A program made the position numbers and the translations under genes. DNA of 64,000 nt from Candidatus Acidiferrales bacterium. Lineage in GTDB: Bacteria > Acidobacteriota > Terriglobia > Acidiferrales > UBA7541. Under the pieces are notes generated by a model. It saw only the letters and a list, made by a program, of their open reading frames with translations, searched no databases and was not told the origin of the DNA. The stretch spans positions 97,047-161,046 of the forward strand of contig CAVPXU010000013.1 of assembly GCA_963709705.1 (NCBI GenBank). The letters are read 5' to 3'. This document shows, piece by piece, positions 16,464-18,757 of this stretch (within the stretch, counting starts at the first letter, position 1; every line of letters starts with the position of its first letter).

Positions 16464-16746
16464 ATTTGCGGCTTCCCGCCCAGATTCTACTGCGAAACAC
16501 TCGCTGCACCACCGGTTCTACACCGTTCAAAAGCCTCGGCTGGAACGGTGGGCAGGCTGCCTACATTGTGCCCCATGAGTAACCCCTGCACTGTTTAAGC
16601 ATACCGTGACAAGAATTTGTCACGAAAAAACTGGCGCAAGCACGTGTGTTTCTGGGACTCTATATCCACTATTTATATTTCTTAACGTGACCTATCCGGA
16701 TCGTTTTCCTGGGGCGGTAACAATCCTATGTACGACCGAGCGCATC

Positions 16747-17079
16747 TTGAAACACCAGGTTCTTCATTCCAGAAGGCATCACGAGCGAGTCGAAACGCCT
16801 CAGGGCGTGTCGGTTTTCTGGCGGTGCGGCCGCATGGAAGACACATCGCGGGTTAAGGATGTGAGTGTGGGCGGCCTTTTTATCGAAACGCTGAAGGTTT
16901 GCCCGGTCGACGCCACGATCAAACTTCATTTTCTTGTCGAGGACGGAGAAATTACAGCCGATGCCACCGTCCGGTACGTTAAGGCCGGCAGCGGATTAGG
17001 TCTGAAATTCAAGACTGTTCGCACCGAAGATCAAACACGTTTCGCAGCCATGATCAAAAGGCTGATCAAGCTGGCCTAA
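16747..17079 (+). CDS. PilZ domain protein
   Basis: RHHER (RxxxR) and DVSVGG (DxSxxG) c-di-GMP-binding motifs. Start uncertain (TTG 16747 preferred over the track's GTG 16606). Confidence 0.85.
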   Translation: MKHQVLHSRRHHERVETPQGVSVFWRCGRMEDTSRVKDVSVGGLFIETLKVCPVDATIKLHFLVEDGEITADATVRYVKAGSGLGLKFKTVRTEDQTRFAAMIKRLIKLA

Positions 17080-17107: not shown

Positions 17108-18082
17108 TCATCGGCTGAAAGTAGGAAGGTGCACGATGTCGTTCGGCGGTACGGTTTCTACCGGATTGCCGGCTTTGCGCCATGCTGCCAGGCCGCCGAC
17201 AATCACAAACGCGTTAAATCCCCGTTCCCGCAGCAGGTGCGCCACACGGGCGCTGGTCGCTTCGCGCGGTCAAGTGCAGTACAGATAGATGTCTTTGTCT
17301 CTGGGAAGTATTTTGATTTCCTGCGACAGGTTATTCGGCTCCAGCCGAATCGATCCTCGAATGCGGGCGGCGCCAGGGTCGTAGTAACCGTGACTGCGCA
17401 CATCGGCCAGCAGAACCTTTTCCGCATATTCACTCTGCAGTTTCGCCGCCAGCTCCGTCACTTGTATCCGCGGCACGATGCGGTAAACGCGATGCTTCCA
17501 GTACAGCGTGACGCGATAAGCCATAAACGCGATCACGGCGAGGATCACGACGAACTCCACCGCGTGTCCCGCCGCTTGAAACCCCCGCGCGATCGTCGCG
17601 AAAAAATCGCGGAAGATAAATCCGGCAGCGCCATACGCAAACGCATACGCATTCGCGCCAAGAAAATCCAGCGCCAGAAACTCCGCGAAGGGCATTTTCA
17701 TGCTGCCCGCCAGCGGCGGCGCCATCGAATTAATTCCAGGAATAAATTTGGCCACCACCAACGTGATCCGGCCGCGTTTATAGAAAGATTCCGCCGATCG
17801 CAGAATGCATGTTTCTGGATCGACCGCGATCCGGCACAGAAAACCCAGCAGCCGCCATCCCATATGTTTTCCAAGGATGTACAGCAAGCAATCGCCCAGC
17901 AGCATTGCCGTCACGGCGACCAGCACCGCCGCCGGACCGTGCAGCGCGCCCGATGCCACCGCGGCTCCGCCCGCAACTAATGCCAGCGCCGCGGGCACGG
18001 GAAATCCCAGCGCTTCCGCCAAAACAATCAGAAAAATGACGGCGTATCCGTGGTGTACGATCAGCGCAAGCAGGTCATTCAT
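17108..18082 (-). CDS. DedA/VTT-rhodanese fusion, probable selenoprotein (Sec at TGA 17272-17270; 324 aa)
   Basis: DedA region (IVLAEALGFPVP...VVAKFIPGINSMAPPLAG) followed by a rhodanese domain. After YCT-TGA the frame continues PREATSARVAHLLRERGFNAFVIVGGLAAWRKAGNPVETVPPNDIVHLPTFSR to TGA 17110-17108, completing the fold. Confidence 0.8.
17228..17269 (-). promoter_or_regulatory. Candidate bacterial SECIS element
   Basis: Immediately 3' of the UGA: upper stem GCGCC/GGCGC, 5-nt loop CGUGU starting 22 nt after the UGA with G as second loop base, lower pairings AGC/GCU and CCGC/GCGG. Confidence 0.6.
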
Positions 18083-18160: not shown

Positions 18161-18757
18161 TCACGAATCGCAGCCAGGTCCACCCGGCGACCCGCACTCT
18201 TTCCACAACTTTTCCCAATTCCACATGCCGGCCCGCACTTGAACAGGCAACGGAAATCCCAGCTGGTGCGCCAGCATGCACACCTGCCCACGATGGTGCG
18301 CTTCGTGAGAAATCATGTAGCACAGCATCTCCGGCCCAACCGGCCACGGCTTGCCCCAGCCATCTCTGCGGAATTTTTCCACGCGGCCGCCACCGTCGCC
18401 GAGCGCTTCCGCAAGCATTTCCTCGCAACGGGCGGCGCTTTCCGCCAATCCCGCGCGGGCCCGCTGCGGCGTGCAGCTTGCGCGCTCCAGTTGATGTGGA
18501 ACCTTCAGGTGCGGCGCCGTTAGCCTGATCCACTTCGTGCGCGCATTGTGCATATGCGTGAAGATCGCCGCAATCGTGCGCGTTTTGCCCGGCGGCTTCG
18601 CTCTCCACGCGGCTGGATCAAGTTGTTCGATCAGCATCTGGTTGATGCGCTCGTTGGCCGCAAAGATCTTCATCGCGGCCCGGCCCAGTGTTGCGGGCTG
18701 GCCCGGCTGAGCGGGAACCTTCTTTTGACGCTTGCTCACGGCTCGCTGCTCCGTCAC
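18161..18757 (-). CDS. DinB family protein
   Basis: IAAIFTHMHNAR and MISHEAHHRGQ His-triad pattern. Confidence 0.85.
   Translation of the reverse strand: MTEQRAVSKRQKKVPAQPGQPATLGRAAMKIFAANERINQMLIEQLDPAAWRAKPPGKTRTIAAIFTHMHNARTKWIRLTAPHLKVPHQLERASCTPQRARAGLAESAARCEEMLAEALGDGGGRVEKFRRDGWGKPWPVGPEMLCYMISHEAHHRGQVCMLAHQLGFPLPVQVRAGMWNWEKLWKECGSPGGPGCDS

What the first reader, a model, noticed from the sequence alone, without database searches (positions are those of the whole stretch)
17108..18082. Probable selenoprotein: DedA membrane domain fused to a rhodanese with a C-x-U active-site loop
Seen: the ORF track stops at TGA 17272-17270 in the middle of the rhodanese domain (IYLYCT*). The same frame continues for 53 codons (PREATSARVAHLLRERGFNAFVIVGGLAAWRKAG...) and supplies the active-site helix and the terminal GGxxxW rhodanese signature, which a 270-aa product would lack. 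Established: DedA-rhodanese fusions typically read YCxCPNE(A/E)(S/T)SA, so the TGA sits at a Cys position, the hallmark of Sec recoding. Rhodanese-type selenoproteins are known, and a DedA protein has been linked to selenite handling in Cupriavidus (Ralstonia) metallidurans. Inference: a 324-aa membrane-anchored Sec enzyme (Sec271) coupling a DedA transporter/flippase domain to sulfur or selenium transfer. I do not know of this fusion having been characterised as a selenoprotein. Caveat: TGC-to-TGA is one substitution and two other lesions occur in this window.
Basis: partly seen in the sequence, partly recalled or inferred. Interest (0 to 1): 0.87.

Follow-up and report, generated by a model that had tools for sequence, protein, structure and literature searches.

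The report
Selenocysteine DedA-rhodanese membrane protein gene
The "stop" codon inside this soil-bacterium gene is almost certainly read as selenocysteine at the catalytic site of a sulfur-transfer (rhodanese) domain fused to a DedA membrane protein. The family is widespread, public databases cut it short at that codon, and it extends a known selenoprotein type to a new architecture.

Summary
The minus-strand ORF 18082..17270 ends at TGA 17272-17270 (…IYLYCT*), and the same frame runs 53 more codons to TGA 17110-17108, giving a 324-aa DedA(VTT)+rhodanese protein.

The Sec reading is strongly supported:
- The TGA aligns with the rhodanese catalytic Cys.
- Of 128 full-length homologues, 68 have TGA at that column and 60 have TGC/TGT.
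- The codons after the TGA are under the same purifying selection as those before it (dN/dS 0.03-0.2 against 0.09-0.14).
- A hairpin (GCGCC-CGKGY-GGCGC, loop 22 nt after the UGA) is fully paired in 63 of 67 distinct Sec forms but in only 5 of 60 Cys forms. It shows compensatory changes and frozen four-fold sites.
- The genome holds selA, selB, selC and selD, plus a canonical Sec formate dehydrogenase.
- The identical gene, TGA included, occurs in 8 independent contigs.

The rhodanese module is the known "form 3" CxU selenoprotein type (NCBIfam NF041203). True members of that family share the same hairpin. They are small secreted proteins, and no member of the fusion family reaches that model's cut-off.

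The biochemical function is inferred, not shown. Cys forms persist in genomes without selD, so the role is probably general sulfur or redox chemistry rather than selenium handling. Earlier notes in this scan had already reached the same reading in other genomes.

The parts
17108..18082 (-). Full read-through gene: 324 codons (Sec271) plus the terminal TGA stop at 17110-17108
   Evidence: Full-length Cys-type homologues of exactly 324 aa end at the same ...HLPTFSR*.
17621..17974 (-). DedA / VTT membrane domain core (residues 37-154; the whole membrane part is about residues 1-200)
   Evidence: Pfam PF09335, 45.1 bits against cut-off 33.9. AF2 model with nine helices, H3-24 to H173-199. Invariant E23, D64, K112-F-x-P-G and P123-L-A-G.
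17807..17836 (-). Invariant Cys pair C83-x8-C92 (LCRIAVDPETC) in the loop after TM2 of the DedA part
   Evidence: Invariant in alignment A2 across both clades. Absent from the genome's DedA-only paralogue. Placement on the cytoplasmic side is inferred from the positive-inside rule.
17174..17425 (-). Rhodanese domain (residues 220-303), spanning the TGA
   Evidence: Pfam PF00581, 36.2 bits against cut-off 22.2. Foldseek hits to single-domain rhodaneses 3nhv, 3ilm, 1gmx (GlpE) and 2mrm/5hbo (YgaP).
17276..17278 (-). Cys269 codon, the invariant Cys of the C-x-U motif
   Evidence: Invariant column in A2.
17270..17272 (-). UGA read as selenocysteine (Sec271) at the rhodanese catalytic position
   Evidence: TGA in 68 and TGC/TGT in 60 of 128 homologues at this column. 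Aligns with the catalytic Cys of 6mxv.
17239..17253 (-). SECIS core hairpin: 5-bp stem GCGCC/GGCGC with 5-nt loop CGUGU (loop 17244-17248, nt 25-29 counted from the U of UGA)
   Evidence: 5 of 5 pairs formed in 63 of 67 distinct Sec forms against 5 of 60 Cys forms. Compensatory changes occur at three pairs. Four-fold sites in the stem are invariant in Sec forms only.
17228..17269 (-). Extended hairpin with lower helices predicted for this sequence only (not conserved across the family)
   Evidence: RNAfold MFE structure. The lower helices differ between clades.

Best explanation
The gene encodes a 324-residue inner-membrane selenoprotein. SHOWN by comparison: UGA 17272-17270 is decoded as selenocysteine by the SelA/SelB/SelC/SelD system. 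Decoding is directed by a SECIS hairpin inside the coding sequence (core 17239-17253). Sec271 occupies the catalytic-nucleophile position of a C-terminal rhodanese domain (loop U-P-R-E-A-T-S), two residues after an invariant Cys269 (the C-x-U motif). INFERRED: the N-terminal DedA/VTT domain anchors the rhodanese domain on the cytoplasmic face. The evidence for that side is the cluster of positive charges after the last TM helix and in the 71-113 loop. Sec271 accepts a sulfane sulfur (or another chalcogen or electrophile) as a Se-S adduct. Cys269, and possibly the family-specific invariant pair C83/C92 in a DedA loop, resolve or relay that adduct. The chemistry is coupled to whatever small anion or lipid-linked substrate the DedA domain moves. 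E. coli YgaP, a rhodanese with a membrane domain, is the analogy. Sec is a catalytic upgrade of a job that Cys versions do in organisms lacking selenium metabolism. My confidence that this is a genuine Sec codon is about 0.93. My confidence in the specific sulfur-transfer/relay mechanism is about 0.35.
For: Sec machinery in the genome: tRNA-Sec at C8:61272-61370, selB 365 bits, selA 554 bits, selD 341 bits, all above curated cut-offs. A canonical FdnG-type selenoprotein with TGA at ...ENQARV-U-HGPTV is also present. TGA ends 39% of long ORFs, so the codon is not reassigned genome-wide. Sec/Cys alternation: 26 TGA and 4 TGC in the first 30 loci. In a phylum-wide sample, 35 of the 52 other genomes that hold the family carry the TGA form. 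In all, 68 Sec and 60 Cys forms were found, including Sec forms labelled Rokubacteria, Planctomycetota, Myxococcota and Gammaproteobacteria. Translation past the UGA: every Sec orthologue keeps 53 codons ending ...HLPTFSR*, with dN/dS 0.03-0.2 downstream against 0.09-0.14 upstream. SECIS: the core stem is fully paired in 63 of 67 Sec forms against 5 of 60 Cys forms. Entropy at the four-fold sites 24/30/33 is 0/0/0.19 bits in Sec forms against 1.75/1.82/1.62 in Cys forms, while flanking third positions vary equally in both. Compensatory changes are GC->AU at 22-32, CG->UA at 21-33 and CG->GC at 18-36. Some Cys forms keep fossil hairpins. Not an assembly error: the identical 975-nt gene is found in 8 contigs from ENA, NCBI and five Logan run assemblies. 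Catalytic position: ungapped alignment to 6mxv YCGGGFRS and a rhodanese fold by Foldseek. Co-occurrence: 11 of 11 Sec-form genomes have selD.
Against: The hairpin in this single sequence folds no better than shuffled sequence (z 0.19-0.66), and no Rfam SECIS family matches, so the SECIS case rests on comparison alone. Four Sec forms have only 4 of 5 core pairs. For the mechanism, no gene neighbour is conserved across lineages and no substrate is known. The cytoplasmic orientation is inferred only from charge distribution, while the nearest stand-alone relatives carry signal peptides.
Confidence: 0.9

Rival explanations
1. Pseudogene or sequencing/assembly error: a single TGC-to-TGA substitution truncates the protein to 270 aa, leaving a crippled half-rhodanese.
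For: TGC->TGA is one substitution. Public annotation calls a 270-aa 'VTT domain-containing protein'.
Against: The identical sequence occurs in 8 independent contigs. TGA sits at the same column in 68 homologues across several phyla. The downstream 53 codons are intact with dN/dS about 0.1. The hairpin is conserved only where TGA is present.
Confidence: 0.01
2. The UGA is read through without selenocysteine (near-cognate Trp or Cys insertion), or it mostly terminates. The hairpin would then act as a generic read-through or pausing signal.
For: No experimental Se data exist. One database entry translates the site as W, most likely a table-4 translation artefact.
Against: The position alternates only with Cys, the chemical analogue of Sec, and it is the catalytic nucleophile. 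The TGA form co-occurs with selD in 11 of 11 genomes tested, and Cys forms are what is found in selD-less genomes. The hairpin's distance from the UGA and its G-containing loop fit the bacterial SECIS model. The stand-alone relatives that NCBIfam NF041203 names '(seleno)protein' carry the same hairpin.
Confidence: 0.04
3. Selenium-specific device: the DedA domain imports selenite (as proposed for DedA of Ralstonia/Cupriavidus metallidurans). The CxU rhodanese traps selenium as a Se-Se/Se-S adduct and hands it to SelD for selenophosphate synthesis.
For: A DedA-selenite uptake link is reported in the literature (cited in PMC11422209). From my own knowledge, unchecked here: rhodanese can carry selenium in vitro. 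Four invariant Cys/Sec residues would suit a chalcogen relay.
Against: 14 of 19 genomes with the Cys form lack selD altogether, so the protein is kept where no selenium is used. There is no genomic linkage to selD, selA or selB in this genome, where they lie on contigs C11, C6 and C3. No neighbour is conserved elsewhere either.
Confidence: 0.12
4. Redox or regulatory role: the C-x-U pair is a selenylsulfide redox switch or a reductase (rhodanese/Cdc25-fold arsenate or chromate-type reductases, ChrE-like). It would either detoxify an oxyanion or gate the DedA transporter according to redox state, rather than transfer sulfur.
For: There are weak matches to the rhodanese chromate-resistance protein ChrE (31-35 bits, cut-off 120). 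A vicinal C-x-U motif is typical of redox selenoproteins (table in PMC13188914). Additional invariant cysteines C83/C92 are present.
Against: The active-site loop has the six-residue length of sulfurtransferases, not the seven-residue CX5R of phosphatase/arsenate-reductase types (reading of the alignment plus general knowledge). All matches to named reductase families are far below cut-off.
Confidence: 0.25

Closest known systems
Rhodanese-like selenoprotein 'form 3' (NCBIfam NF041203 rhodanese_LYCAU, 'rhodanese-related (seleno)protein'; CxU motif; listed in PMC13188914 with ref. Zhang & Gladyshev 2005)
   Same: It has the same rhodanese module, the same C-x-U active-site motif followed by P-N/R-E-x-T-S-A-R-V-A, and the same SECIS core. 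True members L171 and L172 (118.5 and 116 bits) read FCT-U-PNEGTSARVAL and carry AGCGCCCGUGUGGCG. It is the best NCBIfam hit of the window protein (80.4 bits).
   Different: True members are stand-alone proteins of about 150 aa with N-terminal signal peptides, so they are exported. The window protein is fused behind a 200-aa DedA membrane domain, probably faces the cytoplasm, and has two extra invariant cysteines. It and all six other family members tested score 63-91 bits, below the 115-bit cut-off.
DedA / VTT-domain membrane proteins (PF09335; E. coli YqjA/YghB, undecaprenyl-phosphate transporter UptA, R. metallidurans DedA linked to selenite uptake)
   Same: The N-terminal 200 residues match PF09335 above its cut-off and keep the membrane-embedded acidic residues and the K/R-F-x-P-G ... 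P-L-A-G signature.
   Different: It is far below the cut-offs of every named DedA equivalog: UptA 45 against 300 and 35 against 250, PRK10847 42 against 236. It carries a C-x8-C loop that the genome's own DedA-only paralogue lacks. No DedA protein is listed among selenoproteins in the 2026 catalogue, and no paper in the searched library combines DedA, rhodanese and selenoprotein.
E. coli YgaP (membrane-anchored rhodanese; PDB 2mrm, 5hbo)
   Same: It is a cytoplasmic single-domain rhodanese tethered to the inner membrane by a transmembrane domain. Its rhodanese domain is a structural neighbour of the model.
   Different: YgaP has the rhodanese domain first and only two C-terminal TM helices. 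It uses Cys, and it has no DedA domain and no C-x-U motif (general knowledge, not tested here).
TsoB, rhodanese/DsbD fusion-like selenoprotein (NF045694; 'form 5' in PMC13188914)
   Same: It is another rhodanese selenoprotein joined to a membrane-protein module.
   Different: It has a different partner domain (DsbD-like), a UxxxxU motif with two Sec residues, and only a trace match (24.5 bits against 805).

Membership tests
Bacterial selenoprotein gene (SelB/SECIS-dependent UGA recoding) | In-frame UGA at a position occupied by Cys in homologues | tested here: met
   68 TGA against 60 TGC/TGT at the same column in 128 homologues.
Bacterial selenoprotein gene (SelB/SECIS-dependent UGA recoding) | SECIS stem-loop shortly 3' of the UGA (apical loop about 16-37 nt downstream, with a G early in the loop) | tested here: met
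   Loop CGUGU at nt 25-29 from the U of UGA. The stem is paired in 63 of 67 Sec forms against 5 of 60 Cys forms, and compensatory changes occur at 3 pairs. The single-sequence energy is not exceptional.
Bacterial selenoprotein gene (SelB/SECIS-dependent UGA recoding) | selA, selB, selC and selD present in the same genome | tested here: met
   all above curated cut-offs. A canonical Sec-FdnG is also present.
Bacterial selenoprotein gene (SelB/SECIS-dependent UGA recoding) | Coding sequence downstream of the UGA under purifying selection | tested here: met
   dN/dS 0.03-0.2 downstream against 0.09-0.14 upstream. The stop position is conserved.
Bacterial selenoprotein gene (SelB/SECIS-dependent UGA recoding) | Selenium demonstrably incorporated (75Se labelling or MS) | not testable with these tools
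   This needs an experiment.
Rhodanese domain (PF00581) | Domain match above the gathering score and a rhodanese fold | tested here: met
   36.2 bits against 22.2. Foldseek probability 1.0 to 3nhv, 3ilm and 1gmx.
Rhodanese domain (PF00581) | Nucleophile (Cys) at the first position of the six-residue active-site loop | tested here: met
   Sec271 aligns with the catalytic Cys of 6mxv (U-PREAT-S against C-GGGFR-S).
NF041203 rhodanese_LYCAU (selenoprotein form 3) | Whole-protein score at or above the curated cut-off of 115 bits | tested here: not met
   80.4 bits for the window protein. 63-91 bits for six other family members.
NF041203 rhodanese_LYCAU (selenoprotein form 3) | C-x-U motif and shared SECIS | tested here: met
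   LYCT-U here against FCT-U in L171 and L172. The hairpin core is identical.
NF041203 rhodanese_LYCAU (selenoprotein form 3) | Stand-alone architecture of about 126-150 aa | tested here: not met
   The window protein is a 324-aa fusion. True members have a signal peptide plus a rhodanese domain only.
DedA / VTT family (PF09335) | Domain match above the gathering score | tested here: met
   45.1 bits against 33.9.
Undecaprenyl-phosphate transporter UptA (NF052604/NF052605) | Score at or above the curated cut-off (250/300 bits) | tested here: not met
   35.2 and 45.3 bits.

The most novel reading that the evidence does not exclude
The four invariant chalcogen residues (C83 and C92 in a DedA loop, C269 and U271 in the rhodanese loop) form a relay. 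The relay would couple DedA-mediated transport of a small sulfur or selenium species, or of a lipid-linked substrate, directly to covalent Se-S chemistry at the membrane. That would be the first biochemical handle on what a DedA domain moves. It would also be the first case of a transporter with a built-in selenoenzyme. The module appears in two architectures: fused to DedA (probably cytoplasmic) and stand-alone with a signal peptide.
Probability: 0.15. Interest if true: 0.8.

Novelty: new variant of a known kind. Interest (0 to 1): 0.5.

Why it matters
There are three practical points and one scientific one.

(1) Annotation. Sec forms of this gene are listed in public databases as 270-aa "VTT domain-containing proteins" (8 of the 120 best database hits). 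No NCBIfam model rescues them. The family is nevertheless common: 53 of 301 sampled genomes of the phylum hold it, 36 of those with TGA, and it also occurs in MAGs labelled as several other phyla.

(2) Selenoproteome size. The family adds a membrane protein to the selenoproteome of abundant soil Acidobacteriota. It is missing from the 2026 catalogue table.

(3) Natural experiment. Sec appears to be ancestral, and at least 6-8 Sec/Cys switches have occurred, some leaving fossil SECIS hairpins. This is useful material for studying Sec-to-Cys replacement.

Scientifically, DedA proteins are ubiquitous and poorly understood. A fusion to a catalytic domain with a selenium nucleophile hints at their substrates. 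This is an incremental extension of a known selenoprotein type, not a new principle.

Tried and rejected
- **Raw reads and transcripts:** I substituted independent assemblies.
- **Single-sequence folding of the hairpin:** it is no better than shuffles, so I rejected it as evidence on its own.
- **Rfam scan of the region:** no SECIS family matched, only a chance hit at E = 1.8.
- **Conserved gene neighbourhood:** all-against-all clustering of neighbouring ORFs in 128 loci found only lineage-restricted synteny. Examples are a nitroreductase-like gene 24 nt upstream in one genus-level clade, and DinB and PilZ genes next to the window gene. Nothing is shared across diverse lineages, so I drew no functional inference from context.
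- **Foldseek for the DedA part:** only the rhodanese part found PDB neighbours.
- **Distances between C83/C92 and the active site in the AF2 model:** coordinates are not exposed.
- **Pseudogene, assembly error and global TGA reassignment:** considered and rejected.
- **Membership in NF041203, UptA, ChrE and TsoB:** considered and rejected on score cut-offs.
- **Other split frames in the window:** a mechanical scan showed no second case like this one.

Full report
**Observation**

On the minus strand an ATG-started ORF runs from 18082 to a TGA at 17272-17270 (270 aa, ending ...LPRDKDIYLYCT). The same frame continues for 53 codons (PREATSARVAHLLRERGFNAFVIVGGLAAWRKAGNPVETVPPNDIVHLPTFSR) to a second TGA at 17110-17108. 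The 324-aa read-through product has a DedA/VTT domain (PF09335, residues 37-154) and a rhodanese domain (PF00581, residues 220-303). The rhodanese match spans the internal TGA.

**Position of the codon**

An ungapped phmmer alignment to the solved rhodanese 6mxv pairs U-P-R-E-A-T-S with C-G-G-G-F-R-S. Residue 271 is therefore the catalytic nucleophile at the head of the six-residue active-site loop, and Cys269 sits two residues upstream. An AlphaFold2 model (mean pLDDT 80.2) finds only single-domain rhodaneses as PDB neighbours. These include GlpE and the membrane-anchored YgaP.

**Sec machinery**

The 6.16-Mb assembly that holds the window has these components:
- tRNA-Sec at C8:61272-61370
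- selB, 365 bits
- selA, 554 bits
- selD, 341 bits

It also has an FdnG-type formate dehydrogenase with an in-frame TGA at the classical ...ENQARV-U-HGPTV site. TGA terminates 39% of ORFs of at least 350 codons, so the codon is not reassigned genome-wide.

**Comparative evidence**

Searching 60 relatives gave full-length homologues in most of them. Of the first 30 loci, 26 have a single in-frame TGA at exactly this column and 4 have TGC. A sample of 301 genomes of the phylum found the family in 53 (the window's own genome and 52 others). Of those 52, 35 have TGA and 17 have Cys only. A scan of one genome per species found further members in MAGs labelled Rokubacteria, Planctomycetota, Myxococcota and Gammaproteobacteria (Sec forms). 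It also found members in MAGs labelled Nitrospiraceae and Verrucomicrobiota and in cultured Granulicella and Tunturiibacter (Cys forms). Altogether I extracted 128 full-length genes, 68 Sec and 60 Cys. Database names place the window's organism in Candidatus Acidiferrum/Acidiferrales, Acidobacteriota.

**Not an error, not decaying**

The exact 270-aa product and the identical 975-nt gene, TGA included, occur in 8 contigs from independent sources: two ENA assemblies, one NCBI assembly and five Logan assemblies of separate runs. Four more-diverged Sec orthologues (84-94% identical) keep all 53 downstream codons and the same stop. Pairwise dN/dS is 0.03-0.2 downstream of the UGA and 0.09-0.14 upstream. 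Downstream dS is lower, as expected if an RNA structure adds constraint.

**SECIS**

Counting from the U of UGA, nt 20-24 (GCGCC) pair with nt 30-34 (GGCGC) around the loop CGUGU. In clade B two more pairs (18-36 and 19-35) extend the stem.

| Measure | 67 distinct Sec forms | 60 Cys forms |
|---|---|---|
| Core stem 5 of 5 paired | 63 | 5 |
| Entropy at four-fold site 24 | 0 bits | 1.75 bits |
| Entropy at four-fold site 30 | 0 bits | 1.82 bits |
| Entropy at four-fold site 33 | 0.19 bits | 1.62 bits |

- Flanking third codon positions vary equally in both sets (1.5-1.9 bits).
- Loops are CGUGU (44), CGGGU (15), CGUGC (5), CGGGC (2) and AGGUU (1).
- Compensatory changes occur at 22-32 (GC->AU), 21-33 (CG->UA, twice) and 18-36 (CG->GC, 13 sequences). 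Wobble changes occur at 20-34, 21-33 and 23-31.
- On its own, the window's hairpin folds no better than shuffled sequence, and Rfam has no matching family. The case is therefore comparative, but it is strong.

**Evolution**

A maximum-likelihood tree splits the family into clade A (window type, 38 rows) and clade B (90 rows). Sec forms with the same hairpin lie on deep branches of both clades, and Cys clades are nested within them. At least 6-8 Sec/Cys changes are needed. Several Cys forms keep a fossil hairpin: L165 (TGT, AGTGCCCGTGTGGCGC), L166 (loop G mutated), L145 and L100. The simplest reading is an ancestral Sec with repeated Sec-to-Cys losses. The window gene sits in a six-member Sec clade that is sister to a 13-member Cys clade.

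**Relation to known families**

The best NCBIfam match is NF041203 rhodanese_LYCAU, 'rhodanese-related (seleno)protein'. The window protein scores 80.4 bits against a cut-off of 115, and six other family members score 63-91 bits. [quoted passage not shown] Neither that review nor the BSepDB and deep-Sep papers mention DedA or VTT. No paper in the searched library combines selenoprotein, rhodanese and DedA.

True NF041203 members in the phylum (L171 and L172, 118.5 and 116 bits) are proteins of about 150 aa with signal peptides. They carry the motif FCT-U-PNEGTSARVAL and the same hairpin core. The Sec-rhodanese module is therefore shared, SECIS included. The DedA fusion is a separate architecture that current models and gene callers miss. 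Databases list Sec forms as 270-aa 'VTT domain-containing protein' entries.

**Mechanism (inferred)**

- The DedA part keeps the family's membrane-embedded E23 and D64 and the K-F-x-P-G...P-L-A-G signature.
- Positive charge clusters after the last helix (KHRVYRIVPR) and in the 71-113 loop put both the rhodanese domain and an invariant C83-x8-C92 pair on the cytoplasmic side, by the positive-inside rule. The genome's DedA-only paralogue lacks that Cys pair.
- I propose a membrane-tethered sulfurtransferase or persulfide carrier in which Sec271 is the nucleophile. Cys269, and perhaps C83/C92, would resolve or relay the adduct. The chemistry would be coupled to DedA-mediated transport, by analogy with YgaP.
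- A selenium-specific role (selenite import and delivery to SelD) is less likely. All 11 Sec-form genomes tested have selD, but 14 of 19 Cys-form genomes have none and still keep the protein.
- Gene context gives no help.

**Earlier notes of this scan**

After reaching the above, I found that 49 earlier findings in other genomes describe the same family with the same conclusion. They are not independent evidence. They do mean that this instance adds little beyond the points tested here: the shared SECIS with secreted form-3 proteins, the C83/C92 pair, the fossil hairpins and the selD co-occurrence test.

**Verdict**

This is a genuine selenocysteine codon (about 0.93). It represents a new architectural variant of a known selenoprotein type, and its function remains open. 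Interest is moderate.

Noticed in passing
Genome contig C9:153608-156718 (outside the window; locus L176): An FdnG-type formate dehydrogenase alpha subunit (1351 bits) has one in-frame TGA at ...ENQARV-U-HGPTV, followed by a GGUCUC...GGGACC hairpin. It is a canonical selenoprotein and shows that Sec decoding is in use in this genome.
   Followed up: partly
Relatives' selD genes (table), e.g. G348:C75:15973-16899 and G033:C26:10516-11472: In 10 of the 16 genomes with selD, selD itself carries one in-frame TGA (a Sec-containing SelD). The window genome's own selD (C11:79051-80010) has none.
   Followed up: no
Loci L171, L172 and L174 (other Acidobacteriota genomes): Stand-alone CxU rhodanese selenoproteins (NF041203 type) have clear N-terminal signal peptides. 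The same Sec module and SECIS is therefore used both in an exported form and in a DedA fusion that probably faces the cytoplasm.
   Followed up: partly
Protein database hits (checked): One full-length database entry has W at the Sec position, presumably a TGA translated under table 4. Eight of the top 120 entries are 270-aa truncations.
   Followed up: no
L040 (G005:C29:219140-220084): This homologue shows two in-frame TGAs. The second lies near the C-terminus (...QSASG*DS) and is probably the true stop, overrun by the search alignment rather than a second Sec.
   Followed up: no
window 18161-18757 (-) and 16606-17079 (+): The immediate neighbours are a DinB-family gene upstream on the same strand and a convergent PilZ-domain gene downstream. 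This arrangement is kept in close relatives but not across the family. One orthologue (L054) has a MOSC-domain gene upstream instead.
   Followed up: partly
Clade-B loci, e.g. L041 and L024 (same genus as the window genome): In 27 loci of one clade a nitroreductase-like gene ends about 24 nt upstream on the same strand, and a dCTP-deaminase-like gene lies downstream. This may be an operon in that lineage only. The window genome lacks this clade-B paralogue.
   Followed up: partly
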